From IMG/VR virus record IMGVR_UViG_3300037067_004861: a stretch of 64,000 bases of DNA. One strand, 5' to 3'. The notes under the pieces are model-generated. The model was given only the letters and a program-made list of their open reading frames with translations. It was not told the origin of the DNA and did no database searches. A program made the position numbers and the translations under genes. Below, piece by piece: positions 318 to 46,769 of this stretch (within the stretch, counting starts at the first letter, position 1; each line of letters begins with the position of its first letter). This DNA comes from a virus. Taxonomy: Duplodnaviria; Heunggongvirae; Uroviricota; Caudoviricetes.

Positions 318-345
318 TCCTGGAATCCTGGAATCACTGATTCCT
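318..345. promoter_or_regulatory. Cluster of GGAATCC / GAATCAcTGATTC half-sites; member of the palindromic motif family GGAATCC-N-GGATTCC
   Basis: ggaatcctggaatcctggaatcactgattcc; related palindromes at 988, 1111, 4351 and 4946. Confidence 0.4.
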
Positions 346-514: not shown

Positions 515-525
515 GGTCTTTCCTC

Positions 526-855: not shown

Positions 856-897
856 CCAAAGCTAGGACAGCCAAGATAGCGGAGACGGTCAAAGTAG

Positions 898-1131: not shown

Positions 1132-1411
1132 GGTTACATGCGTTTCTCGATTACACGCATCTTTGACGCTATTTTAATTGCTTCTTTTTTTCAAAAATGG
1201 CGAATCTTTGGGAATCCTTCGTAGCTGATTCCTGTTGAACGTCGCTAACGAGGCGACGGAGGGCCACTAATTCCTCAAGGCCCTGGGCCAAGCCCGCCCA
1301 GGTAGCTTGGCGAGGAGGAAGAGAGCAGACACGTTCGATGCGTTTACTGTCAATCATGGTACCCTCTCCCCTTCTACTCAACTCTACCACATTGCCCAGC
1401 CTTGTCAAGGA

Positions 1412-1435
1412 TATTCTGATAAAAATATCAGAATA
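1412..1435. promoter_or_regulatory. 10-4-10 palindrome TATTCTGATA-aaaa-TATCAGAATA next to a TTGACA hexamer
   Basis: Direct reading; intergenic between 1169..1408 and 1468..1722. Confidence 0.35.
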
Positions 1436-1467
1436 TCACAACCCAGGTTGCTATTATGACAATAATA

Positions 1468-1722
1468 TCATTTCCGTGGTTTGTTCCGATAGTAGCCCGT
1501 CTTGCCAACCAGCTCAAAACATTCGGCACAATCGACACAATCCACACAATCCTCACAGTCACTGCAGAAGTCACAATTGGTACATCTCTTGCATCGCTCA
1601 CTTTTGCTACAAAGTGTGCAATCCGTACAATCCCTACAACTAACACAACCAGCACAATTCTCGCAGTCCCCACAATACTGCGAATCCGGACAATCGAGAC
1701 ATTTGATATTAGTATCAGACAT
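1468..1722 (-). CDS. Cysteine-rich repeat protein, (DCxxC)n, about 24 Cys in 84 aa; C-terminal GKTGYYRNKPRK
   Basis: ORF track; CxxC periodicity every 3 residues; paralog of 9517..9768. Confidence 0.55.
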   Translation of the reverse strand: MSDTNIKCLDCPDSQYCGDCENCAGCVSCRDCTDCTLCSKSERCKRCTNCDFCSDCEDCVDCVDCAECFELVGKTGYYRNKPRK

Positions 1723-1786
1723 GGTACAATCCGTAAACAGAGAAAGAGGGGCAGCCTAGGTTTCCTAGGCTGCCCCTCCGAATGGG

Positions 1787-2821
1787 TTAGGCGTTGACTA
1801 CCTCTTTCGAGGCTTCCATAGCCTCCTGCAGAAGGGTATCAATCTCAACGTCGCCAACGTGTCGGCGGAGAGTGGCGAGGGCCGACGCCGCAATCTCCAA
1901 GGAGACGGCGTAATCGTCACAATCCGTCAACGTCTCCCCGCCCTGCCCGGTTGCCGCCAAGAGGACTCTCTTGACAATCTCCGATCGGGCCGTTTGGCCA
2001 CGGTCAACCGCCTGCTTGGGGGTAAGGCTCTTGGCCGTCTGGGTGGCCTCGTCCCCCTTGTCCTTGGGGGACATCACCTCATCCCACGCTACACGGAATA
2101 GGGGGCCGTCGCCCGCCGGGTAGTTAGCGTATTCCTTGCCAAACACGCCGAACAGACCGTTGATCTTCTGCCATTGCATCGGTGTGGATTTTGGCGAATA
2201 CACCGCTTTTTCCATTTCCGATTGAACGAATTGGGGCAGCCGGGCCAGGTTGGCACGAATCTGCACATAGCTCCGATTGGGGGCACCGGGGGTTTTGCCT
2301 TTGGTGTGGAAGATGCCGAGGATAGTGGCAATCTCCGCCTGCCCCTCTCCGATGCCAACAAGCTGCCGGATAGCCAAAAACTGGCTCCACTGGTCCAACG
2401 GCTCCCGGTCGGCGGCTGGGTCGTGGTCGATCCGGAGTCGGGTTTCCTCCGCTTCGGTGAGGCCCTTGTAAACGATACAGGGCACCTTCCCACCACCCAG
2501 AACCTCGGCGTAGGTGCCGGGCTCATTGTCCCGCAAAAATTGCAGGCTCTTGGCCCTCCGGTTGCCCCTCAAAACGAGATACTGGCCGTCGCTCTTCTCA
2601 CTCACCATAAGCGTCGAATCGGGCTGCCAGCCGTGCCTCTTGATGAGGTCGATCATGCCGGGAAGGTTGTAATTACGCTCGTCTCGGGGGTTGCCCCCGA
2701 AAATGAGGGCGTCAACCGGAACAAGCGTCGTCGTCTGCTTAGCCATTTCAATCACTCCAAACAAAACAAAGGGAACAAGGGGAACAAAGGGGAGAGGAAT
2801 GATATTATAATCAATCCTCAA
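1787..2821 (-). CDS. ParB-like N-terminal (sulfiredoxin-fold) nuclease-domain protein; likely true start at Met26 (about nt 2746, MAKQTTT)
   Basis: LVLRGNRR motif (ParB GxxRxxA box); GC-rich codon usage unlike most of the window; promoter-like TGATTATAATATC at 2800. Confidence 0.6.
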   Translation of the reverse strand: MRIDYNIIPLPFVPLVPFVLFGVIEMAKQTTTLVPVDALIFGGNPRDERNYNLPGMIDLIKRHGWQPDSTLMVSEKSDGQYLVLRGNRRAKSLQFLRDNEPGTYAEVLGGGKVPCIVYKGLTEAEETRLRIDHDPAADREPLDQWSQFLAIRQLVGIGEGQAEIATILGIFHTKGKTPGAPNRSYVQIRANLARLPQFVQSEMEKAVYSPKSTPMQWQKINGLFGVFGKEYANYPAGDGPLFRVAWDEVMSPKDKGDEATQTAKSLTPKQAVDRGQTARSEIVKRVLLAATGQGGETLTDCDDYAVSLEIAASALATLRRHVGDVEIDTLLQEAMEASKEVVNA

Positions 2822-3023
2822 ATTGCTGTATATCCTTACAAACGATCAGAACGTAAGAGGCCACGTATCCGAAAGCCGCCGATGCCAGGGCACGGAAGGG
2901 GTCAAAATCATTGTGAACGGCACTAACCGCGAAAACCGTCGACAACAGAGCAAACGGAAGAGTCGCCAAAATCGAGATAACCTGCATTGTCGGCCTCACT
3001 AGGAAAAGTGATACTATTGTCAA
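2811..3023 (-). CDS. Small hydrophobic hypothetical protein (two predicted TM segments)
   Basis: ORF track; minus-strand array. Confidence 0.35.
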   Translation of the reverse strand: MTIVSLFLVRPTMQVISILATLPFALLSTVFAVSAVHNDFDPFRALASAAFGYVASYVLIVCKDIQQFED

Positions 3024-3220
3024 TTGTTATCCTCACCAGTCACAACCCGGATAACCGGATGCCCATCGTCGAGCACGCCACTGGCAACAGAGGCTTGGCT
3101 AAGGCCGGCTGCAAATAGATCATCATCGGTATCATCCATGGAAACCGTTACAGTGCAGTCCAATTGCCACGGTTGCAACAATTGCAACGCCGAGAGTAGT
3201 TCGCGGTAGGTTGGCAACAC
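3020..3220 (-). CDS. Small acidic hypothetical protein
   Basis: ORF track; lies downstream of a consensus promoter at 3271..3298; 4-nt start/stop overlap with 2811..3023. Confidence 0.4.
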   Translation of the reverse strand: MLPTYRELLSALQLLQPWQLDCTVTVSMDDTDDDLFAAGLSQASVASGVLDDGHPVIRVVTGEDNN

Positions 3221-3270
3221 TTTCCGATACCCCTCTTGTGGGTGGTGTGGTAACTCTCGGCCTCTACTCC

Positions 3271-3298
3271 ATTATACCATGGCCTGGCATCGTGTCAA
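3271..3298 (-). promoter_or_regulatory. Sigma70-type promoter on the minus strand: TTGACA-16 nt-TATAAT
   Basis: Reverse complement reads ttgacacgatgccaggccatggtataat, with both hexamers consensus; upstream of 3020..3220. Confidence 0.65.
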
Positions 3299-3329
3299 GA
3301 GGAATTGTAAAGATTCCAGGAACCACCCA

Positions 3330-3668
3330 TTAGAGGGGTAGTTCTTCCACCAGCCACGAACTACTATCCTGATCGTAGGAACCGTTTTGATCCCCATGAT
3401 TGACAGCGTCGTAATTGCCGCGAAGAACGGAATCCCGGGCCTCATCGCTATGAGTGGCATAAACTGTGTAAACGGAATAACTCACACTTGGAACCGACAC
3501 GATGAAGCGCCTGAGTCCGGCAGCCTTGGCGAACCTCTCGGGGACGAACCGTGGGTTGGCTATCGAGGCCACGTCCATCACGGCATCGGCAATTGCCTGT
3601 TTGTTCATTTTATCCGGTTCATCCAGGATAATCCGAGCAAACTGCACTAAGTCTTTTTTCGTTAGCAT
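3330..3668 (-). CDS. Hypothetical protein (112 aa)
   Basis: ORF track. Confidence 0.4.
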   Translation of the reverse strand: MLTKKDLVQFARIILDEPDKMNKQAIADAVMDVASIANPRFVPERFAKAAGLRRFIVSVPSVSYSVYTVYATHSDEARDSVLRGNYDAVNHGDQNGSYDQDSSSWLVEELPL

Positions 3669-3672
3669 AGGT

Positions 3673-3948
3673 TCACTCCATATATTCGGAAGAATTGAGT
3701 GAGGCCGTTAAAGTCGCTACATCCGGAACCTTGAGAATCAAGAACCGCTCGATGTCCAGGGGCGACCATTCCTCGCCGGTGGCATCCTCAGTGATAGCCT
3801 GCACATTCCGCAAACCATGCAGCATCACTACAACCCTCAATGCCTCGCCGAGGGTCATGGACTCGATGGTGTGGGTGCTCTCGGCACCGGGCTGTTTGAG
3901 AGCGGAGCGGGATCGTTGGACGCGAAGAGAGAACCGTTGCAACGTCAT
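3673..3948 (-). CDS. Hypothetical protein (91 aa)
   Basis: ORF track; lies downstream of the promoter at 3999..4027. Confidence 0.4.
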   Translation of the reverse strand: MTLQRFSLRVQRSRSALKQPGAESTHTIESMTLGEALRVVVMLHGLRNVQAITEDATGEEWSPLDIERFLILKVPDVATLTASLNSSEYME

Positions 3949-3998
3949 CGTAGATCATCCTAGGATATGAGGAAGAGGGTGTTTGCCCCGACACCACT

Positions 3999-4027
3999 AT
4001 CCTACCATGGCTAGGGCCAGGTGTCAA
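3999..4027 (-). promoter_or_regulatory. Sigma70-type promoter on the minus strand: TTGACA-17 nt-TAGGAT; paralogous to the promoter at 3271..3298 (shared ACCATGGC...GTGTCAAGA context)
   Basis: Reverse complement reads ttgacacctggccctagccatggtaggat. Confidence 0.55.
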
Positions 4028-4081
4028 GAAGAAAACCGGTGGAATTGTTTGTTTCGATTCTAAGGGCAGTATATTCTACAG

Positions 4082-4172
4082 CCAGGTGCCAGGTGCCAGG
4101 TGTCCGGTGTCCGGTGTCCGGTGTCCGGTGTCCGGTGTCCGGTGTCCGGTGTCCGGTGTCCGGTGTCCGGTG
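4082..4172. repeat. Heptamer tandem repeat: (ccaggtg)x3 then (tccggtg) about x10
   Basis: Direct reading; ORF 4021..4479 is its translation artefact. Confidence 0.9.
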
Positions 4173-4220
4173 GGATTATGACAACATAGGTTTGATATTT
4201 TACACACCCTTTAGCGGGGT

Positions 4221-4350
4221 AGGGATTGTAACAATAATAGGGATTGTAACAACAATAGGGATTGTAACAATAATAGGGATTGTAACAATAATAATGATTT
4301 TAAGGATTGTAGTGATTTTAAGGATTATTACGGTTATTACGGTTGATTTT
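4221..4350. repeat. 18-bp tandem repeats (agggattgtaacaataat, x4) followed by shorter gattttaaggatt and ttattacgg repeats
   Basis: Direct reading. Confidence 0.85.
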
Positions 4351-4372
4351 AGAATCCAGGATTCACTGATTC

Positions 4373-4476
4373 CTATACGCACACCTACCCCGGCGCTCCC
4401 GGGCAGAACGAGAATCGTACTTTCAAAGCATAACTATACGCACACCTACCCCGGCGCTCCCGGGCAGAACGAGAAT
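4373..4476. repeat. Two copies of a 43-bp direct repeat (tatacgcacacctaccccggcgctcccgggcagaacgagaat), each holding a CCCGG-cgctc-CCGGG hairpin, separated by about 20 nt
   Basis: Direct reading. Confidence 0.85.
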
Positions 4477-4718
4477 TGAAAATGTAAAGAAAATGATGAT
4501 TTTGAAAATTGATTTTCAAATCATAATGTCATAATAATGAGAACACTATTGGACAATGGTTAATCTCTTATGACGCTAGAACGCCGTCTCACGCCCTCCA
4601 ACGCCCCAATGGCTCCCAAGACCAAAATGGGAAATGGGCTCCCTAGGCACGCAGCTAGGGCCCTTAAAAGGGAATCCGTAGCCGTGGCCACGGAAGCCGC
4701 GAGGGGTAGCCGGGAAGT

Positions 4719-4812
4719 CCATAAATAATAATACTTTTTCCTATTCCCCTATAGGGCATTTTTATTAGAAAGAGCCCTATAGGGGAATAGGAAAAAGTAT
4801 TATTATTTATGG
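4719..4812. repeat. Perfect inverted repeat with 38-bp arms (ccataaataataatactttttcctattcccctatagggc) and a 17-nt spacer; cruciform or hairpin-forming
   Basis: Right arm 4774..4812 is the exact reverse complement of left arm 4719..4756. Confidence 0.9.
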
Positions 4813-4945
4813 AGAGGCTAAGTCTAGGCTACGGCTAGACTTACGGAATTATACTGTTTTTATGTCCACCTTCACATAACTATTGTCCAATAGTGAACTC
4901 ATCATTATTTGGCCTTTTAGAGCTTTTTAGAGCTTTTAACGAAAA

Positions 4946-4974
4946 GCAGGAATCCAGGATTCCTGGATTCCTGC
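4946..4974. promoter_or_regulatory. Palindrome gcaGGAATCCaGGATTCCtggattcctgc; strongest copy of the GGAATCC-N-GGATTCC motif
   Basis: Direct reading. Confidence 0.45.
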
Positions 4975-4994
4975 AACAATTAAACTAAGAATTA

Positions 4995-5354
4995 TTAAAC
5001 AATTCTTTTCGTCAGCTCAGGAAGTGCAACCTCAGTAATAAGATTATTCTCAACTAGGAGGTCAACAATCTCAATGGCTACGCCGTCAACAAACGCTTCT
5101 TCATTAAGAACCACTTCTTTTAAAAGCATGGGGTTGCGATCCAAGACTCCGTGAATCAACTCGTGGATCAAGGATTCAAGGATGCACCGATTCGGTTGCT
5201 CAGTACATACTCTAATGGTCCTGCTATTATAATCAATATAACCTAAGTACTTCTTGTCTTCACAGTTAATAACCGTGGGTACTTCAGCACTCTGAGCCAC
5301 ATATTCAATAGTGTAATCCACACCCCTAATAGTAATAGCAGTAGGTAGTTTCAT
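4995..5354 (-). CDS. Putative zinc metallopeptidase (HExxH: LIHELIHGV), ImmA/IrrE- or SprT-like
   Basis: HELIH motif in a 119-aa protein. Confidence 0.4.
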   Translation of the reverse strand: MKLPTAITIRGVDYTIEYVAQSAEVPTVINCEDKKYLGYIDYNSRTIRVCTEQPNRCILESLIHELIHGVLDRNPMLLKEVVLNEEAFVDGVAIEIVDLLVENNLITEVALPELTKRIV

Positions 5355-5395
5355 AATTATTCTTTATCCTGTTTTGATACTATTATTATTATTTC

Positions 5396-5668
5396 TTATT
5401 TAATGTTCTTTACGAAATCAGTAATCATTGGAACCAATGATGTTAGGCCACCACTAAAATACATGGCTGCAATTACTACGGCAATCACTGCCAGTGAAAT
5501 GAAACTCCATTTCCTTTCCTTGGCTACCGTAGCACGGGCTTCAACAATAGCCTTACGGCCTTCTAACCTTGTCTTCATACGCTCTGTCCGTATTGTTGAA
5601 AACTTTTTATCTGTTTTTACAGCATCATTGTCTTCACTCTTGGATCGACGATTCCTAAAAATTCCCAT
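5396..5668 (-). CDS. Hypothetical protein with basic N-terminus and a C-terminal TM segment
   Basis: ORF track. Confidence 0.4.
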   Translation of the reverse strand: MGIFRNRRSKSEDNDAVKTDKKFSTIRTERMKTRLEGRKAIVEARATVAKERKWSFISLAVIAVVIAAMYFSGGLTSLVPMITDFVKNIK

Positions 5669-5695
5669 TTGCTTTTCCTTGTTAATTACTTACTT

Positions 5696-5872
5696 TTAAG
5701 AAACAAAAGACTCTGCTTCCCACCAATCCCCGCAATAGCCATTATAATAGCGATACTGGATGGTAGCAAATTCCAGCCACCTCCAATCGTCTTTTAAACA
5801 TAAGGGAAGAAATAAGAACCTTCTCCTGATTTTAATATCTCCACACTTTAGTGGTTCATATTTGTATCTCAT
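5696..5872 (-). CDS. Small hypothetical protein (58 aa), paralog of 5936..6106 (MRYKYEP...GDIKIRRRFLFLP...)
   Basis: Manual translation; the two ORFs align (GDIKIR.rFLFLPL.L.d.W.WL.F.TI.YRYY.GY.G.WW.AE); below the ORF-track cutoff. Confidence 0.4.
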   Translation of the reverse strand: MRYKYEPLKCGDIKIRRRFLFLPLCLKDDWRWLEFATIQYRYYNGYCGDWWEAESFVS

Positions 5873-5877
5873 AGTTT

Positions 5878-5952
5878 TCTTAAACCTTAAACCTTAAACC
5901 TTAAACCTTAAACCTTAAACCTTAAACCTTAAACCTTAAACCTTAAACCTTA
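5878..5952. repeat. Heptamer tandem repeat (aacctta), about 10 copies; overlaps the 3' end and stop of ORF 5936..6106
   Basis: Direct reading; a shorter copy sits at 6106..6125. Confidence 0.9.
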
Positions 5953-6106
5953 AAACTGTCTCGGCGTTCCAATAGTTTCCGCTATAACCTTCGTAATAAC
6001 GATACAGAATCGTTACAAACTGCAGCCACCACCATTTACCATCTAAATACAGTGGTAAGAACAGGAACTTATCCCTGATTTTAATATCACCGTCTTTGTA
6101 TTTCAT
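5936..6106 (-). CDS. Small hypothetical protein (56 aa), paralog of 5696..5872
   Basis: Manual translation MKYKDGDIKIRDKFLFLPLYLDGKWWWLQF... Confidence 0.4.
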   Translation of the reverse strand: MKYKDGDIKIRDKFLFLPLYLDGKWWWLQFVTILYRYYEGYSGNYWNAETVLRFKV

Positions 6107-22933: not shown

Positions 22934-23007
22934 TGAGCCCGGCGGGACTTGAACCCGCGGTCTACGGATTAAAAGTCCATTGCTTTCCCAAACTAAGCTA
23001 CAGGCTC
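22934..23007 (-). tRNA. tRNA-Lys (anticodon UUU)
   Basis: Hand-folded cloverleaf: acceptor GAGCCTG/CGGGCTC, D-stem GCTT/AAGC, anticodon arm ATGGA-CTTTTAA-TCCGT, T-arm GCGGG-TTCAAGT-CCCGC. Confidence 0.8.
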
Positions 23008-28493: not shown

Positions 28494-28518
28494 GGTTGTA
28501 TATCTTTAATAGTAAAAG

Positions 28519-28591
28519 TAGGACGGGAAGGAATCGAACCTTCGGCCACGACTTTATAAGAATCGCACTCTAACCACTGAGTTACCGTCCC
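28519..28591 (-). tRNA. tRNA-Ile (anticodon UAU)
   Basis: Hand fold: acceptor GGGACGG/CCGTCCT (G1-U72), D-stem ACTC/GAGT, anticodon arm CGATT-CTTATAA-AGTCG, T-arm GAAGG-TTCGATT-CCTTC. Confidence 0.75.
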
Positions 28592-34370: not shown

Positions 34371-34627
34371 TAGCGGTATCCATCAAAAATATAAGTATAG
34401 GGTTTACCAGTATTCTTCTTATAAACGCACTCATGTCTTGGCAATATACTACATGGTTCAATACACTCGGATACAATTGGTCTAGTTGAATATTTGGAGT
34501 AGAATATCAATTCCGGAAGATATCCTGGTAGTATTATAATTTGACCATCCTTAGGTCCACCTAATAACTGTACTTCCATAAGTTGCCTATGATAATATGA
34601 TATTAAAAGCATAATAATAAAAGCCAC
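34370..34627 (-). CDS. Hypothetical protein
   Basis: ORF track. Confidence 0.35.
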   Translation of the reverse strand: MAFIIMLLISYYHRQLMEVQLLGGPKDGQIIILPGYLPELIFYSKYSTRPIVSECIEPCSILPRHECVYKKNTGKPYTYIFDGYR

Positions 34628-34694
34628 CGGTAGGAATTGAACCTACAACCTGTTGATTACAAATCAACTCCTCTACCTATTGAGGTACAGTGGC
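34622..34694 (-). tRNA. tRNA-Thr (anticodon UGU)
   Basis: Hand fold: acceptor GCCACTG/CGGTGGC, D-stem CCTC/GAGG, anticodon arm GTTGA-TTTGTAA-TCAAC, T-arm GTAGG-TTCAATT-CCTAC. Confidence 0.8.
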
Positions 34695-34695
34695 A

Positions 34696-34767
34696 CTGTG
34701 CGGCCAGGACTTGAACCTGGAATCAACTGCTTAACAGGCAGATGCTTAACCATTAAGCTACCGCACA
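34696..34767 (-). tRNA. tRNA-Asn (anticodon GUU)
   Basis: Hand fold: acceptor TGTGCGG/CCGCACA, D-stem GCTT/AAGC, anticodon arm TCTGC-CTGTTAA-GCAGT, T-arm CCAGG-TTCAAGT-CCTGG. Confidence 0.75.
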
Positions 34768-35058
34768 AACTAATTTTTGTGTCGCACCTAGTCCAAATAC
34801 AATTGACTGATATATCATATCATAATATTGGTAAAATGTAAAGAAAAACTTTTCTTTTGGGTTAAGATCTTTTAAGAGTGAGTTCACTACTAATTTTAGA
34901 TTATTTTTTTCTATTTCAAAATCCTCCTGAGGTATCCATTCTACTATGTGTCCATAAAATCCTACAGGTGGTCTTGGGAATAGTGATAGGGACACAAAAA
35001 TAGATTTAAACTCTAACTCTGTATACACAATGGCAAAAGCATCTACCATAGTAATCAT
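34753..35058 (-). CDS. Hypothetical protein (3' end overlaps tRNA-Asn by about 15 nt)
   Basis: ORF track. Confidence 0.35.
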   Translation of the reverse strand: MITMVDAFAIVYTELEFKSIFVSLSLFPRPPVGFYGHIVEWIPQEDFEIEKNNLKLVVNSLLKDLNPKEKFFFTFYQYYDMIYQSIVFGLGATQKLVCAVA

Positions 35059-38186: not shown

Positions 38187-38510
38187 TTACTTCTTTAGTT
38201 GCTTGTACTTCTCAGCGAAAAGTTCGGATTGCAGCGAGAAAACTAGTTCACTCATTTGCTGATTCTGTTTATCCATGAGACTCAGTTTAGTCTGTAGATC
38301 GGCGTTCATCACCCTAATCTCGTTGGCTCGATCTATAATCTGTTGGCATCTTGCATCAGCTTCCTGTAACTTAATGAGACACAATTTCACACTCTCAGAT
38401 TGATTATGGAGCGTGTCCACAGTGATATAGGAAACAGATAGACAAGCAATAAAGATAACGATAATCATAAGTCGTTGGAACATAGTTTCCCTTTCTTTCT
38501 TTTCTTTCAA
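38187..38510 (-). CDS. Membrane-anchored coiled-coil protein (N-terminal TM plus coiled coil; i-spanin- or FtsL-like topology)
   Basis: ORF track; topology read from the sequence. Confidence 0.35.
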   Translation of the reverse strand: MKEKKERETMFQRLMIIVIFIACLSVSYITVDTLHNQSESVKLCLIKLQEADARCQQIIDRANEIRVMNADLQTKLSLMDKQNQQMSELVFSLQSELFAEKYKQLKK

Positions 38511-38716
38511 TCCCAGGAGTCAATAATAAGAATATCATCTACCCAAAATATGAAACCAAACCACTGGACCCACATAGCCGAACGTATCGTTTTACTTTTA
38601 ACATCCAAGTAGGTAGCTCCATAGGTCCATGGATACAGTTGTTGTAAGCACCATAGAGTCTTTGAGTTACTCCGTATATAAGATAGGTGCCTTAGGAATT
38701 TTTTAAATTCGGACAT
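38507..38716 (-). CDS. Hypothetical protein
   Basis: ORF track. Confidence 0.35.
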   Translation of the reverse strand: MSEFKKFLRHLSYIRSNSKTLWCLQQLYPWTYGATYLDVKSKTIRSAMWVQWFGFIFWVDDILIIDSWD

Positions 38717-38718
38717 TT

Positions 38719-39543
38719 CTAAACCTCTACATCCTCGAAAGGCAACACATAAGGGATACCCTTATCCCGTGCGGCCCGTTTGATATCAAAATATAAGTCA
38801 GCACTACTGATATTACCGTTCGCCCAGGCCAGGGCTCGTGTAACTAAACTATAACCAAGCGTATCCCCGATATGCTTTATCATATCCTGTACTGTCGATA
38901 CGGATTGACGTTTCTTGACGAAGGGGCGTTGGGCTGGCTTCTTCCCAACATCCAAACCCTTTTGCCCATTAAGAAGTGAAGTCTTGATTTTCCTAACAGC
39001 CGCGTACTGATCGTCTGCACTGTCGAGAGTAGCTAATTGCCTAATCTGATATTGATTCAGAACACCAGCCGCGGCCTCCTCTTGAATCTCTTTCGGTAGT
39101 TTGAGTAAGTCTAAACGCACCTGTACCCAAGACCGTGACTTACCCAATTCTTTAGAAATTTGATCTTGAATTAGACCTAATCCCCTTAGTTTCTCTACCG
39201 CATGAGCCTCCTGCAGAATATTCAGTTCTTCGCGTTGCAGGTTCTCCGTGAGGTTGAGTAATCGGGCTTGTAGTTCGGATAACCCCGTCCGAATCATCGC
39301 TGGAATCTCAGTCTTCTTCAAGACGCGGCAGGCAGCGAACCGTCTGTGACCAGCAATGATTCTATAATCATAATTGGGTCCACTAGTTAGCGGTTGGACA
39401 GTAATAGGGAACTGTAGACCATTACGGTCTATGTCCTTGGCTAATTCGGAGACACTAAGTAAGGAGATAGTACCCCTGCAATTGAAATCACTATCACTAA
39501 AAATACGATTGATAGGTATGTTTTTTACTTGATAATCATCCAT
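38719..39543 (-). CDS. ParB-like nuclease-domain/HTH protein
   Basis: YRIIAGHRRFAA (ParB box) followed by an HTH region; adjacent to the DNA methyltransferase. Confidence 0.6.
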   Translation of the reverse strand: MDDYQVKNIPINRIFSDSDFNCRGTISLLSVSELAKDIDRNGLQFPITVQPLTSGPNYDYRIIAGHRRFAACRVLKKTEIPAMIRTGLSELQARLLNLTENLQREELNILQEAHAVEKLRGLGLIQDQISKELGKSRSWVQVRLDLLKLPKEIQEEAAAGVLNQYQIRQLATLDSADDQYAAVRKIKTSLLNGQKGLDVGKKPAQRPFVKKRQSVSTVQDMIKHIGDTLGYSLVTRALAWANGNISSADLYFDIKRAARDKGIPYVLPFEDVEV

Positions 39544-39742
39544 TGCTAATTCCTTGACATATTAGAATTACTATCCCAAGAGGATACATGAGTAGAGAAA
39601 TGAACCAGAGAAATATAAAGAAGTCCTCTACTCTTGTATCCTGGGTTGCCCAAGTAAGGACAGGTAGAATAAGCCAACTAAATGGGGGAGCAATAAATGT
39701 AATTGCCCCAAGGATACTACACATTGCTAATTCCCTAGTCAC
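39536..39742 (-). CDS. Small membrane protein
   Basis: ORF track. Confidence 0.35.
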   Translation of the reverse strand: MTRELAMCSILGAITFIAPPFSWLILPVLTWATQDTRVEDFFIFLWFISLLMYPLGIVILICQGISNG

Positions 39743-39773
39743 CGTTAGAAACTGGCTCTATCACGGGGCAACG

Positions 39774-40535
39774 TCATGCTCGGCTGATAGGAAGCCCGTG
39801 CTCCTCGGAGATGTTCCGGCAATAGGTGCTGTCCAGGTCGATCAGCGTGCATGACCGGCCGATTCGCTCGCAGACACGCAACGTCGTGCCGGTGCCGGCG
39901 AACGGGTCAATGACGGTGTCGCCCATCTTGGTGCTGAACAGCAAGCACCTTTCGACCAACCCCTCGTTAAGCTGTGTCGGGCACCATGGCCGGCGCTGCT
40001 TCGAGTTGCCGGTGACTCTCGGGAAGTCGAACACATCGCCCGGAACACGGCCTCGTGGATCAGCCCTCTTGTCTCCGTTCTCCTGCCGCCAGGAGGGCAC
40101 GCGAATGGCGTCGGGGTAGAACGCGGCATCGGGCCACCACAGACGAAGCAACGGGCGGTGGTTGTTCCCGAAGTCGTGATGGTTGTGCTGGCCGAACGTG
40201 AAGGTCTGGATGCAATTTTTGGCCGATAGTCGCGGGTTGGCTTTCAGTAGCCTCCAGACGATCATGCCCATGGCGAAACTCCACTTGGAGTTGTACGACA
40301 TCCACACCACGGGGGCCTTGCCAACGAACGCTTGAAGAAGCGTGTCGAGAAGATCAACATACTCATCGTCTGGCAGGTTGTCGTTGTGTTCGCTGTAGCC
40401 GAGCTTGATGTTGTCCGGCGGATCGGCGAAAATGCAATTCGCGTTCGGGATATGCTCAAGGACGTGAAGGCAATCGCCGTGGTAGAGATAGTGCATGATT
40501 AGTTTCCTAATTATCGAAACCCAGTAAGAGAGCAC
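39774..40535 (-). CDS. DNA methyltransferase (N6-adenine or N4-cytosine, beta class); conspicuously GC-rich gene
   Basis: Motif IV IFADPPDN precedes motif I IDPFAGTGTT; GC far above the surrounding genes, so the track shows many overlapping spurious ORFs. Confidence 0.7.
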   Translation of the reverse strand: MLSYWVSIIRKLIMHYLYHGDCLHVLEHIPNANCIFADPPDNIKLGYSEHNDNLPDDEYVDLLDTLLQAFVGKAPVVWMSYNSKWSFAMGMIVWRLLKANPRLSAKNCIQTFTFGQHNHHDFGNNHRPLLRLWWPDAAFYPDAIRVPSWRQENGDKRADPRGRVPGDVFDFPRVTGNSKQRRPWCPTQLNEGLVERCLLFSTKMGDTVIDPFAGTGTTLRVCERIGRSCTLIDLDSTYCRNISEEHGLPISRA

Positions 40536-40619
40536 ATACTAAGATAACAGTAGGAATAGATACTATAACGATACACGTAAAAACGAGTAGTGCAGTCTCT
40601 CCGTTATCTATTTTCATAG

Positions 40620-41795
40620 TCAATACTTCCTGTCTTTTAGGATTGTACCATAGCGTTTGGGGCCTAGGTGTTCCCTGTCGGAGCGTAACTTTACGTTAAG
40701 CCGCCAAGAGATTCCATGATCCTTATGTACGCCATGCACTAACTGTGATGGCTCCGAATAGCTAGACAAACTATTATAGACATATGGCGTCGTCGCCACC
40801 CACGTCCCGTTTAGGAGTGTCTCGCCATTAAGAGCGCTTTGCGTTGCGATATTGTGGAAGTGACCAAAACAATAGTAGTCAATACGCTTATCCATTGAGG
40901 AGTTAAGAGCGGTCAACCGTCGTGTCTTACGCTCGATACCATACCATGGGATGCCACTCCAGCTTTTAATATCATCTCCGTGGGCAACATGGAATCCGTG
41001 ACCCTCGATATCAAGATTCACACTGAAAGAATCCGGAATCAAGAAATCAACATTCTTTAAGTCTTGGCAATATGATTCCGCTATTCTCGCTACTAGATAG
41101 TCCCAGTTATCCGTGGGATTATTGTAGTCTTTCTTTATGGAACGGCGACCGTGATTACCGGGGACATAGACCACATGAATCTGTGGAAAATATGCCGCTA
41201 AATCCCTATACATAAGGGCGTGCATTTGTCCGATACCGTAGCAGTTATCGAACATATTACGATAGTAACTATGGTCCACCGACTTATGAATTTCACCGGA
41301 TGTATGATCCCCGTGAGCTAGTATATAAACCTCATGGAAGTCATAGTTTGATAATGTTTGCAGGGCGAATTTGATAACAGTATCAACATACGTCTCGGCC
41401 CGTCGAAGCATAATAGGGAAAGTCACCCGCTCAAGATTCCCTACTTGATGTGGCAGAACTAGTTCATCGGCGTGCTCATCCGTTAAATGGAGACATAGAG
41501 TCTCCGTAATCTTTTTTTCAACTAATTTGAATTTAGGGCATCCAGCCAATGGCTTAATAGGTTTGATAAGTTGTCGGGCTTCATCGGCGAGGGCAACGAA
41601 AACACTATTATCCCGTTGGGCAGCCTCATAGGCTTGCTTGTAGCGAGTACGATCGTCCTTCAGGGCGATATTCTCGGCCTCCAACTGTAAAATCTTTTTA
41701 TTAGTTGGATCGGCCTTAGCCTCTACCTTTTTAGCCTCTACCTTTTTAGTCATTGCTATTCCTAGTTTATATAGTTGGTGAAATCCGTGAACCAA
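40620..41795 (-). CDS. Calcineurin-like metallophosphoesterase (SbcD/Mre11- or phosphatase-like) with an N-terminal coiled coil
   Basis: LHLTDEHAD, ILAHGDHTSG, VPGNHG, HVAHGDD motifs. Confidence 0.55.
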   Translation of the reverse strand: MVHGFHQLYKLGIAMTKKVEAKKVEAKADPTNKKILQLEAENIALKDDRTRYKQAYEAAQRDNSVFVALADEARQLIKPIKPLAGCPKFKLVEKKITETLCLHLTDEHADELVLPHQVGNLERVTFPIMLRRAETYVDTVIKFALQTLSNYDFHEVYILAHGDHTSGEIHKSVDHSYYRNMFDNCYGIGQMHALMYRDLAAYFPQIHVVYVPGNHGRRSIKKDYNNPTDNWDYLVARIAESYCQDLKNVDFLIPDSFSVNLDIEGHGFHVAHGDDIKSWSGIPWYGIERKTRRLTALNSSMDKRIDYYCFGHFHNIATQSALNGETLLNGTWVATTPYVYNSLSSYSEPSQLVHGVHKDHGISWRLNVKLRSDREHLGPKRYGTILKDRKY

Positions 41796-42076
41796 TCATC
41801 AAAGGTTCGCTTATCAATCATACTATTACCATCGTCTTCATATCGTGTAACTAGATCAACTACTATAGTTTTAAACTCAGCTATATTTACAGGGATATCG
41901 TTTACGGAGTTGACCATTGACGCTAAGATATTAAAATCAAAATCACACATACATAATATCTTGTAGCATCGCGGGCAGATAGGACCATAATTAGTTTTAT
42001 GCACGTTATAGGTCTGAGTAATATTCTCAGTGTTTCCACAATATTTGCATTTCATTTTTCTTTCATATTCTTTCAT
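41762..42076 (-). CDS. Zinc-ribbon protein (CKYCGN...CPRC)
   Basis: ORF track. Confidence 0.4.
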   Translation of the reverse strand: MKEYERKMKCKYCGNTENITQTYNVHKTNYGPICPRCYKILCMCDFDFNILASMVNSVNDIPVNIAEFKTIVVDLVTRYEDDGNSMIDKRTFDDWFTDFTNYIN

Positions 42077-42082
42077 TTTCTT

Positions 42083-44389
42083 TTATTCTTTCTTTAGTTT
42101 CGACTTCAAATCCCCAAGAGTCAGAGATTGTAAATCCCTTTTCTGTTTAAGATTAGTTAGAACCAGTTCGTCCGTGGGGAGATGAATAAGATCAATAATA
42201 GTGGCTCCTCTATTCGTGTCCATTCCGATACGGTGGATTCGGTCTTCCGATTGGATACGTGATTCGCCATTAAAATCATTACTGTAATAGATAATAACGG
42301 GGGAGGCCGTTAGGGTTATACCCATCCCCGCCGCACCAGGTTGACCGATGAAAGCAATCCGTGGATACTTTTCCAGTTCGTCTTGGAAGTTGCTAAGCGG
42401 ATCACCGGGGATATTACTATGCCATCCACGCCCGTCAACCCTGATCCAGGCCCAACCATTGGCCTCACAAATCGCGACAATCCTGTCAACGCTGCCAGTG
42501 AAACCCCCATAGATGACAACTCGGCCAATCTCCATGTATTCATCGAGTAATTCGCACAATGCCTCTTCCTTTGGAGTCTCAATGAATTGAGCCGTGCGTT
42601 CGTGGACTTTCCGCGTCCCCTTACCGCCACAGCCATCACAATCCACATATTCGAGTTGATTTTGTAGATCAGTCTCGTTTGGCCGGGAATCCTCTGGCAG
42701 ATTGGCATTAAGCATCGGGTTCTTAATGGTGCCCTTGCCATTGCAAACAGGGCAGGTTTCCGTACCGACTTCTTTCTCAACATATTGGAAGCCATCGCTT
42801 AGTTCCCTCAATAATGTTAATCCCGCCACAACAGTATGGGATGTTTCAATGATAGTATTAGCAATATCAATGATAGACTGAGAGGGCGGGAGATTGATAA
42901 TTTTGTAGATTTTGTCAGGAAGGTCAATAAAATCCTTCTTGAACTGAACAAGAACCAACCCCTTCATACGCTCATGTAATTTGTAAACCTCGTTCTCCGA
43001 GGGCGTATATGGGTGGTCACAATCAGTGTGGTCATCATAGTAACCACCGCAGATGGAACACTTCTTTTCGTCATCAAGCCAAGAAACAATAGTTGGGTAA
43101 GCCTGCCCGAAAGCAGAGTCATTCTTTTTAATGATAGCTAAACGCTGCCTAAACTTATGGTAGTCGCCCTCTTTCAGGAAACCAGGACAAGCTATCTTGC
43201 ATTGTTGGAACCAGTCTGCCGGACTCTTTGGGGCAGGGGAACCAGTTAATAAGAGAATAAAAGCGGACTCTCCCCAGTAGTTTCTGACAATCTCTGCTAG
43301 TTCATAAGCAGCCACGGATCGTTGAGCCGTTGGGTTCTTTGTCCTAGATGATTCATCGAAGACAATACCCATTGGGATATCACAATCCCTAATGTGATTC
43401 TTACTGACTTTAACTAACTCATTGTAGGTTAATAGCCGTGGATTGATTTTACAATCCCAAACTTTGAACTCCCTGCTTACCCCTCTTAAAGCAGACCGTG
43501 GAGCAGCATACCACCAGTTAGGATTGCCAGACCGCTCCATTGCCTCGATCGTTGCCAAGGTTTTACCGCAGTTATGTACAACGATACCATTAGCAAGGAA
43601 ACTATGATATGGTTCTTCACAAACAATATCATAAACAGAGGAGTAACCAACTGGTTTCACAGATACAACGAAATCATAGTATAGTGTATGTTGGCTACTA
43701 TCATAGACATTCATACTTGTTCTTACTACATCACCAGGAACTAAATCCTTTGCTTCCTTGTATTCATCATAGTTAAAACTTATTTCATGGTCCGGTGTGA
43801 CACGCAGAACATATCCACGCTCGGTGGTTATTTCTACTACCTCCTTGAAACCCTTAAAAATTACGTCTTTAACATCAGCCTTGGCTCGTTTGCCTTGGCT
43901 GTCAAAAGTCCTAATTCTATATCTATTAGTATGGGCTTTCTGATGGAATAAGAAATTAAATTTCTCCAAAGTCCACTTAGCTACGTTAGTTTTATTTCCA
44001 CCAAAAATCTCTACTATCGCGGCTCCATCCACACACCCCATCTCACCAGCATAAACTACTTGCTTATAAGTAAGCATGAAGTCAGCGGCATAACGCTGAT
44101 TGATATACAACGGTCGGACATAATCATGTTGAATGATAGGCTTATCATATTTACCATAAACATCCACACCTTGAAGATATTTTAATCTAAAAGCATTATG
44201 ACTGGAGTTATTGATTCTCCATATCTTTCTTGGTGGGTCGTCATAACCACACCAGTGGGCACCATCCATAGATTTTATTTCAGCTATAAGTCCCTTATTA
44301 AAGGAGAATGTCACATAGATATAGTTGTCAACGTAATCTAATGACACTGGAAACTTATATTTACCAACCCTTAATTTAGTATTTATCAT
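42083..44389 (-). CDS. SNF2-family helicase/ATPase interrupted by a mini-intein in the Walker A motif
   Basis: N-extein ...AGEMG joins C-extein CGKTLATIE to give GEMGCGKT; DEAD-like FDES; LLLTGSPAPKS (SNF2 motif III); HRIGM (motif VI). Confidence 0.7.
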   Translation of the reverse strand: MINTKLRVGKYKFPVSLDYVDNYIYVTFSFNKGLIAEIKSMDGAHWCGYDDPPRKIWRINNSSHNAFRLKYLQGVDVYGKYDKPIIQHDYVRPLYINQRYAADFMLTYKQVVYAGEMGCVDGAAIVEIFGGNKTNVAKWTLEKFNFLFHQKAHTNRYRIRTFDSQGKRAKADVKDVIFKGFKEVVEITTERGYVLRVTPDHEISFNYDEYKEAKDLVPGDVVRTSMNVYDSSQHTLYYDFVVSVKPVGYSSVYDIVCEEPYHSFLANGIVVHNCGKTLATIEAMERSGNPNWWYAAPRSALRGVSREFKVWDCKINPRLLTYNELVKVSKNHIRDCDIPMGIVFDESSRTKNPTAQRSVAAYELAEIVRNYWGESAFILLLTGSPAPKSPADWFQQCKIACPGFLKEGDYHKFRQRLAIIKKNDSAFGQAYPTIVSWLDDEKKCSICGGYYDDHTDCDHPYTPSENEVYKLHERMKGLVLVQFKKDFIDLPDKIYKIINLPPSQSIIDIANTIIETSHTVVAGLTLLRELSDGFQYVEKEVGTETCPVCNGKGTIKNPMLNANLPEDSRPNETDLQNQLEYVDCDGCGGKGTRKVHERTAQFIETPKEEALCELLDEYMEIGRVVIYGGFTGSVDRIVAICEANGWAWIRVDGRGWHSNIPGDPLSNFQDELEKYPRIAFIGQPGAAGMGITLTASPVIIYYSNDFNGESRIQSEDRIHRIGMDTNRGATIIDLIHLPTDELVLTNLKQKRDLQSLTLGDLKSKLKKE
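43571..44035 (-). mobile_element. Mini-intein (about 155 aa, no endonuclease domain evident) within the SNF2 helicase P-loop
   Basis: Starts CVDGAAIVEIFGG (block A), TPDH (block B), ends FLANGIVVHN followed by Cys+1. Confidence 0.65.
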
Positions 44390-45821: not shown

Positions 45822-46769
45822 TTAACCCTCAAGTAGCTTCGCGGCTTCCGCAGCAGCCTCATCAGCACGCTTCTTGGCACGCTCAATTTGACGACGCTTC
45901 TTGGCATCCTCAACCTGGCGACGCTTCTCATTGTACTCAGCTTCCTGCTGGGCCAAGCTAATGGGGTCAAGATTAATGGCGAAAGCAACACCTAACCTAA
46001 ATCCATCAACGGCGGTGGTCGCACCGACCTGGTCGCACATCGCACGACCGACTTCACCCTGCTCCAACTCCGTCTTTAGCTCCGCCATCTTGCGGGCATG
46101 TGGGACTGGGGTAAACGAAGGAGCCGATGCCTCACGGCCTTCCTTGACTGCCTGTCGTAACTCAGCGATCCGAGCCTGCACCGTAGCCACGAACTCAGCC
46201 GGGGCCGTCGTCATCGCGGAATCAACAAAGTTAAGTTGCTCTTCCGGCGGGAGCTTAGCAAGAATGACGGCATTGCTAACTGTGATTTTACCATCATCCA
46301 CAAGAGGCTGGACCCGCTCATCCAACTTGAGCAGACCCAAACGCTGGCTGACCCATGACGAACTCTTGGCCAGATGTTGGGCCATCTCCGAAACCGTCAT
46401 GGTCGGATTGCTGGCGAAAATCCGTTGAAGTTGCTTCGTGTACTCAACGGGGCGAGTCTCAATCGTATGGATGTTAGCCATAATCTGAGCTTCGAGGACT
46501 TCGGAATCGTCTAGAGAGACGATGTTTACCGGAATCTCGTCGAGGCCAAGATCAAGAACAGCCGAGAATCGGTGAAGGCCATCAACTAACTCATAATACG
46601 AGATAGTGTCGCCATCAACCTCTTCCGTCTTGCTTCGCACGCTGATAGGATTCAACAGGCCACTACGGGCGATTGAATCACGAAGACCAACATAACCCTC
46701 CGACTCACTGTTCACGGCACGCAACGCAACTGGATTTTTCCGAATCTCGCTGACCTTAATAACACTCAT
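45822..46769 (-). CDS. ParB/Spo0J-like protein (nuclease/CTPase N-domain, HTH, basic C-terminus)
   Basis: YELVDGLHRFSA (ParB box); C-terminal KKRRQIERAKKRADE. Confidence 0.6.
   Translation of the reverse strand: MSVIKVSEIRKNPVALRAVNSESEGYVGLRDSIARSGLLNPISVRSKTEEVDGDTISYYELVDGLHRFSAVLDLGLDEIPVNIVSLDDSEVLEAQIMANIHTIETRPVEYTKQLQRIFASNPTMTVSEMAQHLAKSSSWVSQRLGLLKLDERVQPLVDDGKITVSNAVILAKLPPEEQLNFVDSAMTTAPAEFVATVQARIAELRQAVKEGREASAPSFTPVPHARKMAELKTELEQGEVGRAMCDQVGATTAVDGFRLGVAFAINLDPISLAQQEAEYNEKRRQVEDAKKRRQIERAKKRADEAAAEAAKLLEG

What the first reader, a model, noticed from the sequence alone, without database searches (positions are those of the whole stretch)
39774..40535. Compositionally foreign, GC-rich DNA methyltransferase next to a ParB-like gene
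The methyltransferase (motif IV DPPD before motif I FAGTGTT) is far more GC-rich than its neighbours. This is evident from the run of overlapping stop-free spurious ORFs on both strands in the track. The contrast indicates recent acquisition from a high-GC donor. ParB-domain/methyltransferase pairings are a recurring phage anti-restriction theme; here the two genes are separate and compositionally discordant.
Basis: seen in the sequence. Interest (0 to 1): 0.55.

Follow-up and report, generated by a model that had tools for sequence, protein, structure and literature searches.

The report
Foreign GC-rich methyltransferase gene in phage
A low-GC phage has picked up a single, intact DNA methyltransferase gene from the high-GC virus and prophage gene pool of Planctomycetota bacteria. 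It most likely marks the phage's own DNA against host restriction enzymes, which is an ordinary kind of gene capture, though this enzyme family has an unusual catalytic motif.

Summary
The ORF at 39774..40496 (-) has its likely start at ATG 40496; the GTG at 40535 only marks the longest possible ORF. It encodes a 240-aa beta-class N6/N4 DNA methyltransferase. Its GC is 0.59 and GC3 0.78, against 0.42 and 0.41 for 57 native ORFs (z = 5).

The edges of the GC-rich block coincide with the ORF. Six syntenic relatives of this phage keep phosphoesterase -> [0-5 small ORFs] -> ParB -> PolA, and none has a methyltransferase in that slot. In 66 other loci with homologs, gene GC tracks flank GC (r = 0.945); the window copy lies 8 SD off that line.

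The window enzyme nests within a 54-61% GC clade of Planctomycetota prophages and phage-like contigs, with the best match at 70% aa identity. Horizontal acquisition from a high-GC donor is therefore well supported. "Recent" can only be read as "after the split from the sampled relatives".

Adjacency to ParB is coincidental: ParB is a core gene, and only 2 of 68 homolog loci have a ParB-like ORF nearby. The gene is an orphan with no nuclease partner, so it is probably anti-restriction.

The one unusual point is that the catalytic tetrapeptide is DPPD rather than DPPY. This holds across a whole DxPD clade.

The parts
39774..40496 (-). Coding sequence of the acquired orphan DNA methyltransferase (240 aa, beta-class, PF01555, DxPD clade)
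   Evidence: Pfam 83.3 bits. It is 100% identical to P0001. All 57 columns invariant across the 35 aligned family members are, by construction, present in it. AF2 model pLDDT 90, TM 0.80 to M.BceJIV. GC3 0.776, z = 5.
40497..40535 (-). Upstream extension of the maximal ORF (GTG 40535), probably not translated. It holds the AGGA ribosome-binding site and the end of o36.
   Evidence: Homolog N-termini align to the ATG at 40496. The gene caller's product P0001 is 240 aa. GC here is already native, 0.36-0.41.
40413..40424 (-). Motif IV tetrapeptide D25-P-P-D28 (GAT CCG CCG GAC)
   Evidence: Read from the sequence. It aligns to DPPY of CcrM and M.RsrI, is invariant in 35 homologs, and reads DxPD in every representative above about 40% identity except one (DPPT).
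39882..39902 (-). Motif I, the SAM-binding loop F-A-G-T-G-T-T
   Evidence: Read from the sequence. It aligns to FFGVGTT of CcrM and FAGSGVT of M.RsrI.
40507..40617 (-). o36: AT-rich 36-aa hydrophobic ORF filling the slot upstream of the methyltransferase
   Evidence: Called as a gene in L043. No homolog in relatives or in PHROGs.
39536..39724 (-). o62: AT-rich 62-aa hydrophobic ORF between the methyltransferase and ParB
   Evidence: ORF with ATG 39724. No homolog in relatives or in PHROGs.
39722..39734 (-). Copy 1 of the exact 13-nt direct repeat GGAATTAGCAATG (RBS + ATG of o62)
   Evidence: These are the only two exact copies in 64 kb.
39541..39553 (-). Copy 2 of the same 13-nt repeat (RBS + ATG of ParB)
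38719..39543 (-). ParB-like core gene (downstream anchor of the variable slot)
   Evidence: ParB_N + HTH_ParB. Present at the same position in all six relatives.
40620..41753 (-). Calcineurin-like phosphoesterase/exonuclease core gene (upstream anchor of the variable slot)
   Evidence: phrog_284 exonuclease, 4.5e-36. Relatives share 59-69% identity and the same synteny.

Best explanation
The gene is a horizontally acquired, intact, orphan beta-class DNA amino-methyltransferase. It was inserted as a single-ORF cassette into a hypervariable accessory-gene slot, between the phosphoesterase and ParB core genes, in the replication module of an uncultured ~85-kb, 43% GC tailed phage.

The donor belonged to the high-GC (about 55-63%) phage and prophage gene pool of Planctomycetota (Pirellulales, Thermoguttaceae, Planctomycetaceae). 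There this methyltransferase family is common and matches its surroundings in composition.

Inferred mechanism: the gene is co-transcribed with the replication genes from its own Shine-Dalgarno site. The enzyme uses SAM to methylate an exocyclic amino group at a short recognition site on replicating phage DNA, probably N6 of adenine because the motif begins with Asp. Progeny genomes thereby resist a host restriction system of matching specificity. This would complement the strong avoidance of 6-bp palindromes seen across the genome.

Shown: gene identity, fold, intactness, compositional foreignness, absence from syntenic relatives, and donor clade. Inferred: activity, target base and site, anti-restriction role, and timing.
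For: Identity and fold: Pfam PF01555, PHROG methyltransferase families, PDB sequence hits to CcrM, M.RsrI and M.BceJIV. The AF2 model has pLDDT 90 and Foldseek TM 0.80 to M.BceJIV, followed by M.RsrI, M.MboIIA and CcrM.

Intactness: the sequence carries all residues invariant in the 35-sequence alignment that includes it.

Foreignness: GC3 0.776 against 0.411 +/- 0.073. Per-codon log-likelihood (native minus donor-like codon usage) is -0.358, against +0.267 +/- 0.121 for native genes. GC3 is high along the whole gene, 0.74 in the first 100 codons and 0.81 in the rest. The GC edges are sharp and sit at the ORF ends.

Comparison with homologs: in 66 homolog loci the gene's GC tracks flank GC (r = 0.945, residual SD 0.021). 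The window copy is +0.173, or 8.1 SD.

Synteny: six relatives (L044, L045/46, L047/48, L080, L081, L082) keep phosphoesterase -> 0-5 unrelated small ORFs -> ParB -> PolA with no methyltransferase.

Donor: the NJ tree nests the window enzyme among L049-52, L053, L054, L061, L002, L024 and L060, all 54-61% GC. Twenty of 22 genome loci are Planctomycetota MAGs. L054 is a prophage with integrase, ligase, NT5C, MazG and an exonuclease.

Orphan status: the neighbours are two tiny hydrophobic ORFs with no nuclease domain.

Restriction pressure: 16 of 64 six-base palindromes are absent and 10 more occur at most twice in the 64 kb.

Assembly: the same gene with the same neighbours occurs on four contigs, with JGI, Logan and ENA listed as sources of the protein.
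Against: No biochemical or methylome data exist for this clade, and no paper mentioning a DPPD motif was found. Motif IV lacks the aromatic fourth residue that canonical amino-methyltransferases use to stack the flipped base, so the activity or substrate could differ.

The nearest sampled homolog is only 70% identical, so the actual donor and the date of transfer are unknown. No insertion footprint brackets the cassette: there is no integrase, no HNH gene, and no repeats flanking the methyltransferase.

The host of the window phage is unknown, so the restriction system supposedly evaded is hypothetical.
Confidence: 0.8

Rival explanations
1. The enzyme is not a conventional anti-restriction adenine methylase. 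In this view the DxPD clade has altered chemistry or substrate, such as a different target atom or a non-canonical or hypermodified base, or it serves a regulatory or packaging role. The gene would still be horizontally acquired.
For: The fourth residue of motif IV is Asp in every representative down to about 38% identity except one (DPPT). The variants seen are DPPD, DIPD, DVPD, DSPD, DAPD and DFPD, with DPFD in L075. Canonical DPPY or DPPF returns at or below about 40% identity. In donor-type loci the family sits among nucleotide-pool genes: NT5C in 32 loci, plus MazG and dGTP_diPhyd_N.
Against: Overall fold, motif I, the HPTQ-type motif and the size all match DNA N6A/N4C methylases that act on ordinary DNA. 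The window phage shows no base-modification cluster next to the gene. The L049 ORF first suspected to be PurZ-like is a phosphoesterase.
Confidence: 0.15
2. The gene is an old, vertically inherited component of this phage lineage. Its high GC is intrinsic to the gene through selection or a local mutational regime, and the sampled relatives have lost it.
For: A conserved gene in the same window (g344, 1787..2746) has GC3 0.71 and donor-like codon usage. It is nevertheless present and GC-rich in relative L075 (0.544 against 0.41) and in L083 (0.544 against 0.51). A distant member of the methyltransferase family (38% identity) exists in relative L075.
Against: This would need six independent losses at one site. 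The family's GC tracks host GC everywhere else (r = 0.945), and the L075 copy has native GC (0.379) and lies at a different locus. The window enzyme nests deep inside the high-GC clade, far from L075. The excess is in GC3 rather than GC1 or GC2.
Confidence: 0.04
3. The feature is a metagenome assembly chimera, with a fragment of a high-GC organism spliced into the phage contig.
For: The contig is metagenomic, and the GC switch is abrupt.
Against: Two breakpoints would have to bracket exactly one complete ORF, in the same orientation as its neighbours, with an RBS and 10-50 bp spacers. The same arrangement was read on four contigs, with JGI, Logan and ENA listed as sources of the protein.
Confidence: 0.02
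4. The methyltransferase and the adjacent ParB form a functional two-gene module, a split version of the ParB-methyltransferase fusion proteins.
For: phrog_498 is a ParB-methyltransferase fusion family. The window methyltransferase matches its methylase part, and ParB1, ParB2 and g344 match its ParB part. Distant cultured-phage homologs (AcaML1 Gp25, WO, Porphyromonas phages) have CDSs that extend upstream of the methylase domain.
Against: ParB1 occupies the same position in six relatives that have no methyltransferase. Only 2 of 68 loci with a homolog of this methyltransferase have any ParB-like ORF within 6-10 kb. The two genes differ in GC3 by 0.34.
Confidence: 0.04

Closest known systems
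Beta-class DNA amino-methyltransferases with solved structures: M.BceJIV (8URK), M.RsrI (1EG2), M.MboIIA (1G60), CcrM (6PBD)
   Same: They share the single Rossmann-type domain with the permuted motif order IV...I, an FxGxG SAM loop, an HPTQ-like motif, and a size of about 240-280 aa. Foldseek gives TM 0.74-0.80 and E about 1e-15. HMMER E-values are 3.5e-13 to 1.5e-05.
   Different: Sequence identity is only 20-24%. Motif IV is DPPD instead of DPPY. There is no cognate endonuclease (unlike M.RsrI and M.MboIIA) and no C-terminal domain (unlike CcrM). The recognition site is unknown.
Orphan methyltransferases of phages used against host restriction (for example T4 or P1 Dam-type enzymes; from general knowledge)
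   Same: It is a stand-alone methylase gene inside a phage replication or early module with no nuclease partner. The phage is visibly under restriction pressure, as its palindrome avoidance shows.
   Different: It belongs to a different class (beta rather than alpha) and to an uncharacterised DxPD clade. It is demonstrably xenologous to its carrier genome.
ParB-methyltransferase fusion proteins (PHROG phrog_498; AcaML1 Gp25, Wolbachia WO methylase, Porphyromonas phage methyltransferases)
   Same: The methylase domain is homologous at 25-30% identity, and a ParB-like gene lies nearby.
   Different: There is no fusion. The ParB neighbour is a core gene of independent origin. The fusion proteins keep the canonical DPPY motif.
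Phage 'moron' or accessory-gene slots (general concept)
   Same: A single foreign ORF sits between conserved core genes, at a position whose content differs in every relative.
   Different: No promoter or terminator of its own was detected; the scan stayed at background level. It appears to ride on the operon's transcript.

Membership tests
Pfam PF01555 N6_N4_Mtase (beta-class DNA amino-methyltransferases) | Profile score above the curated gathering threshold | tested here: met
   83.3 bits against a cut-off of 26.7, covering profile positions 2-219 of 221.
Pfam PF01555 N6_N4_Mtase (beta-class DNA amino-methyltransferases) | Circularly permuted order: motif IV N-terminal, motif I (FxGxG) C-terminal | tested here: met
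   DPPD at residues 25-28 and FAGTGTT at residues 199-205.
Pfam PF01555 N6_N4_Mtase (beta-class DNA amino-methyltransferases) | Catalytic tetrapeptide (D/N/S)-P-P-(Y/F/W/H) with an aromatic fourth residue | tested here: not met
   The fourth residue is Asp. It aligns to the Tyr of CcrM and M.RsrI, is invariant in 35 homologs, and reads DxPD across the clade, while DPPY or DPPF returns only at or below about 40% identity. I therefore file it as a divergent variant, not a canonical member.
Pfam PF01555 N6_N4_Mtase (beta-class DNA amino-methyltransferases) | Three-dimensional fold of a beta-class DNA methyltransferase | tested here: met
   AF2 pLDDT 90.1 and pTM 0.88. Foldseek top hits are M.BceJIV, M.RsrI, M.MboIIA and CcrM, with TM up to 0.80.
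Pfam PF01555 N6_N4_Mtase (beta-class DNA amino-methyltransferases) | SAM-dependent methylation of N6-adenine or N4-cytosine at a defined DNA site | not testable with these tools
   This needs expression plus SMRT or ONT methylome data or an in-vitro assay.
Restriction-modification system (Type II) | Cognate endonuclease gene adjacent to the methylase | tested here: not met
   The flanking ORFs are 36 and 62 aa, hydrophobic, and have no family hit. The next genes are ParB and a phosphoesterase that are conserved in relatives lacking the methylase.
ParB-methyltransferase fusion family (phrog_498) | ParB-like N-terminal domain fused to the methylase domain in one polypeptide | tested here: not met
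   The 240-aa protein matches only positions 222-417 of the 633-position profile. ParB is a separate, core gene.
Horizontally acquired (xenologous) gene | Composition and codon usage deviate from the carrier genome and match a candidate donor pool | tested here: met
   z(GC3) = 5.0 and the codon log-likelihood favours donor-like usage. The gene lies 8.1 SD off the gene-versus-flank GC regression.
Horizontally acquired (xenologous) gene | Absent from the orthologous site in relatives of the carrier | tested here: met
   Six syntenic relatives have no methyltransferase between the phosphoesterase and ParB genes.
Horizontally acquired (xenologous) gene | Phylogenetically nested inside the donor clade | tested here: met
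   In the NJ tree rooted on L075, the window enzyme sits among 54-61% GC Planctomycetota and phage sequences. This is a distance tree only, with no support values.

The most novel reading that the evidence does not exclude
The DxPD clade comprises about 90 clusters at 50% identity with E <= 1e-30. In genomes, the DPPD core scanned here was found almost exclusively in Planctomycetota and their prophages. It may be a mechanistically distinct branch of the amino-methyltransferases. In it an invariant carboxylate replaces the base-stacking aromatic residue of motif IV, which could imply a different target atom or base, or a different way of holding the flipped base. Its capture by an unrelated low-GC phage would then mark that phage, and its relatives that carry a native DPFD version, as Planctomycetota-infecting. 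It would also point to a lineage-wide restriction or epigenetic system in these bacteria.
Probability: 0.15. Interest if true: 0.6.

Novelty: new variant of a known kind. Interest (0 to 1): 0.3.

Why it matters
As a case of gene transfer this is routine: phages often pick up orphan methylases. Its value is as a clean, well-controlled example, with one ORF, sharp edges, an empty site in six relatives, and an identified donor pool. It links an uncultured low-GC phage lineage ecologically to Planctomycetota viruses.

The more useful lead is enzymological. A large, conserved methyltransferase clade has Asp where every characterised amino-methyltransferase has an aromatic residue. A single expression and methylome experiment would show whether that changes the chemistry or the specificity.

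Tried and rejected
- Megablast of 38500-42100 against 50,697 phage records gave no match, so no cultured relative is available.
- Single-protein scans of IMG/VR with the phosphoesterase and with ParB1 found no relatives. Relatives had to be reached through the protein database and contig look-ups.
- An exact 25-mer from the end of the phosphoesterase gene was scanned against JGI metagenome contigs, to look for near-identical strains with an empty site. There were no matches. The window's own contig is not in that collection, although the pattern was verified in the window.
- I tested whether homologous recombination through the phosphoesterase gene delivered the cassette, because donor-type phages also have a phosphoesterase upstream of the methylase. 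I rejected this: the two phosphoesterases share only 26% identity over 105 aa, and the 3' end of the window gene has native GC.
- I tested a Z-genome (PurZ/MazZ) link for the clade and rejected it. The 353-aa ORF next to the MazZ-like gene in L049 is a phosphoesterase, and no PurA-like gene was seen.
- I tried to guess the recognition site from palindrome statistics in the window against the relatives. The result was uninformative.
- I asked whether the foreign ORF has been purged of the 26 palindromes the genome avoids. It has none. Codon-permuted versions average 5.1 with P(0) = 0.004, but 14 of 65 homolog genes also have none, so the test is inconclusive.
- The promoter and terminator scan around the gene stayed at background level.
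- Literature searches for a DPPD motif or for Planctomycetes phage methylases found nothing relevant.

Full report
**1. The observation**

The ORF 39774..40535 (-) is real. Its maximal form starts at a GTG. The ATG at 40496 gives a 240-aa product identical to database protein P0001, aligns with the N-termini of all homologs (MxHxLIxGDC...), and has AGGA 9 nt upstream. Pfam places it in N6_N4_Mtase at 83.3 bits against a cut-off of 26.7.

DPPD (residues 25-28, 40424..40413) precedes FAGTGTT (residues 199-205, 39902..39882).

The gene has GC 0.591 and GC3 0.776. Fifty-seven native ORFs of at least 100 aa give GC 0.420 +/- 0.045 and GC3 0.411 +/- 0.073, with a maximum GC3 of 0.560. That gives z = 3.8 for GC and z = 5.0 for GC3. 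GC1 (0.564 against 0.490) and GC2 (0.432 against 0.360) are only mildly raised. The difference therefore lies mainly at synonymous sites and reflects mutational history, not protein composition.

Six shadow ORFs of at least 50 aa overlap the gene on both strands. In 100-nt windows the GC drops from 0.53-0.67 to 0.36-0.42 within about 50 nt at each ORF end. GC3 is high along the whole gene: 0.74 in the first 100 codons and 0.81 in the rest. A ParB_N + HTH_ParB gene lies 230 bp downstream at 38719..39543.

**2. What the carrier is**

The window belongs to an uncultured phage whose contig is about 85 kb. It has no near match among 50,697 phage records.

The phosphoesterase gene next to the methylase has many 59-69% identical homologs on phage-sized contigs. 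Contig look-ups for six of these gave L044, L045/46, L047/48, L080, L081 and L082. All show one conserved replication module:

- DUF5906 primase (opposite strand)
- ParB-like 2
- two small genes
- SNF2 helicase
- phosphoesterase
- [slot]
- ParB-like 1
- small genes
- PolA
- NDK
- NYN

The slot between the phosphoesterase and ParB holds different content in each relative:

| Relative | Slot content |
|---|---|
| L047 | nothing (genes abut, 1 bp apart) |
| L044 | one 52-aa ORF |
| L080 | one 59-aa ORF |
| L081 | two small ORFs |
| L045 | an endonuclease VII gene plus three small ORFs |
| L082 | five small ORFs |

None of these is a methyltransferase, and none resembles the window's o36 or o62. 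The window's slot holds o36, the methyltransferase and o62. The gene therefore occupies a hypervariable accessory slot and is unique to this phage among the seven genomes compared.

**3. Where the gene came from**

The protein has 1843 homologs in the large protein database. The best non-self hit is 70% identical.

Forty-two IMG/VR loci, three contig look-ups and 22 genome loci were collected. In these loci the gene's GC equals that of its flanks. Across 66 loci r = 0.945, slope 1.11 and residual SD 0.021. The largest other residual is 0.073 (L074). The window copy lies +0.173 above the line, or 8.1 SD.

Most carriers have 54-63% GC. Twenty of the 22 genome loci are Planctomycetota MAGs (Pirellulales, Thermoguttaceae, Planctomycetaceae, Phycisphaerae). 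The best are 70% (Pirellulales) and 69% (Thermoguttaceae) identical. L054 is clearly a prophage, with an integrase, ligase, NT5C, MazG, an exonuclease and a second methylase.

A neighbour-joining tree rooted on the most distant member places the window enzyme inside a group formed by L049-52, L053, L054, L061, L002, L024 and L060, all 54-61% GC. It lies far from the low-GC basal members.

The window gene's codon usage fits donor-type genes better than native ones. The per-codon log-likelihood difference is -0.358, against +0.267 +/- 0.121 for native genes.

Apart from the methylase, these loci share essentially nothing with the window phage. A few carry a 46-53% identical PolA at a different relative position.

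**4. Limits on "recent"**

The true donor is unsampled. The insertion postdates the split from relatives whose core proteins are about 59-69% identical, and that split is not necessarily recent in absolute terms.

The window also supplies a cautionary control. g344 (1787..2746, a third ParB-like protein) has GC3 0.71 and donor-like codon usage. Yet it is conserved in relatives and is GC-rich there too: 0.544 in L075, whose genome is 0.41, and 0.544 in L083, whose genome is 0.51. High GC can therefore persist in this lineage. For the methylase, the synteny and phylogeny carry the argument, not the GC alone.

A chimeric assembly is unlikely. Two breakpoints would have to frame exactly one co-oriented ORF, and the arrangement was read on four contigs, with three sources listed for the protein.

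**5. What the protein is and how it probably works**

PDB sequence searches hit CcrM, M.RsrI, M.BceJIV, rotifer N4CMT, DpnA-like enzymes and M.MboIIA. An AlphaFold model built on 35 homologs has pLDDT 90.1. Its best Foldseek matches are M.BceJIV (TM 0.80), M.RsrI, M.MboIIA and CcrM. The window sequence shares every column that is invariant in the 35-sequence alignment.

There is no nuclease gene beside it, so it is an orphan. It points the same way as the replication genes, sits 10-50 bp from its neighbours, and has its own ribosome-binding site. No promoter or terminator stood out above background.

The genome is under visible restriction pressure. Sixteen of the 64 six-base palindromes are absent and ten more occur at most twice. 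The total is 597 observed against 895 expected.

The most likely role is therefore self-methylation of replicating phage DNA, to escape a host restriction enzyme of matching specificity. This is an inference. The target base and site could not be deduced.

**6. The unusual motif**

The fourth residue of motif IV, aromatic in all characterised amino-methyltransferases, is Asp here. It aligns to the Tyr of CcrM and M.RsrI and is invariant in 35 homologs.

I ran an exhaustive HMMER search of 1.84 billion cluster representatives. It found 94 at E <= 1e-30 and 703 at E <= 1e-10. Every representative down to about 38% identity reads D-x-P-D except one (DPPT). The forms are DPPD, DIPD, DVPD, DSPD, DAPD and DFPD. 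DPPY and DPPF reappear only at or below about 40% identity.

L075 is a relative of the window phage. It carries a 38%-identical member with DPFD, native GC (0.379) and a different location. Distant cultured-phage homologs (AcaML1, WO, Porphyromonas and Microcystis phages) all have DPPY.

No paper mentioning this motif was found. I treat this as an uncharacterised variant clade. Whether it changes the chemistry is open.

**7. ParB**

ParB-methylase fusions are real. phrog_498 is such a family: the window methylase matches its methylase part, and all three ParB-like proteins of the window match its ParB part.

Here, though, ParB1 is a core gene present in all six relatives. An HMM built from this lineage's ParB proteins finds a ParB-like ORF near the methylase in only 2 of 68 homolog loci, L071 and L073. 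The adjacency is a by-product of where the variable slot lies.

**8. Verdict**

This is a well-supported but ordinary horizontal capture of an orphan methyltransferase by a phage, and the donor pool is identified. The enzyme belongs to an uncharacterised DxPD variant of a known family. Interest is modest, and the motif is the part worth an experiment.

Noticed in passing
window 1-6000 (g344 at 1787..2746 -; arrays at 66-303, 4099-4172, 4220-4293, 5879-5954): A GC-rich island (GC 0.50-0.60) carries a third ParB-like gene whose only PHROG hit is the ParB part of the ParB-methylase fusion family. Four tandem-repeat arrays lie around it: one below it at 66-303 (15 nt x16) and three above it (GGTGTCC x10.6, 18 nt x4, CTTAAAC x11). 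The gene is conserved and GC-rich in relatives too (L075, L083), and in L075 it lies about 3.7 kb upstream of the terminase. It may be a centromere-like or packaging-related ParB with its binding repeats.
   Followed up: partly
whole window: There is strong avoidance of 6-bp palindromes. Sixteen of 64 are absent (for example ATCGAT, expected 14.6, and CTTAAG, expected 14.4) and 10 more occur at most twice; the total is 597 observed against 895 expected. The density of the 26 avoided sites is 0.22 per kb, against 0.8-2.8 per kb in relatives. GATC (0.54) and GCGC (0.43) are also depleted.
   Followed up: partly
window 42083..44389 (-): The SNF2-type helicase carries an intein (Pfam Intein_splicing). 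It is 768 aa, against 594-621 aa in relatives without the intein. Relative L047 has a larger version (842 aa) with an intein plus an HNH_3 domain.
   Followed up: no
L039-L041 (10001-11224); proteins P0065, P0085, P0088: Some DPPD-methylase homologs carry an in-frame HNH_3 endonuclease insertion of about 185 aa directly after the conserved 'RVPGDV'. Others (P0090, P0112, P0117, P0061) have short duplications at the same point, which look like footprints of a mobile endonuclease that targets this gene.
   Followed up: partly
window 22934-23007, 28518-28591, 34622-34694, 34695-34768 (-): There are four tRNA genes: Lys-UUU, Ile-UAU, Thr-UGU and Asn-GUU. The first three read A-ending codons, which suggests that the host is richer in GC than the phage. 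That would be compatible with a Planctomycetota host.
   Followed up: no
window 39541-39553 and 39722-39734: An exact 13-nt direct repeat, GGAATTAGCAATG, forms the ribosome-binding site and start codon of both ParB1 and the small ORF o62. These are the only two exact copies in 64 kb. It may be a recombination footprint from the filling of the slot.
   Followed up: partly
L075 3577-4326: A relative of the window phage (85,961-nt contig, GC 0.41) carries its own distant member of the same methylase clade. It is 38% identical, has the motif DPFD and native GC of 0.379, and lies at a different site about 5.7 kb upstream of the g344 homolog. The window has no second copy.
   Followed up: yes
window 45822..46769 (-): The second ParB-like gene (ParB2) is moderately GC-rich (GC 0.534, GC3 0.56). 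Among the genes classed as native, it is the only one whose codon usage does not favour the native table. It is conserved in all relatives.
   Followed up: no
L074 6001-6723: The only other homolog locus with a noticeable GC mismatch (gene 0.58 against flank 0.50) is on a contig binned as Methanobacteriaceae. It could be another transfer or a binning error.
   Followed up: no
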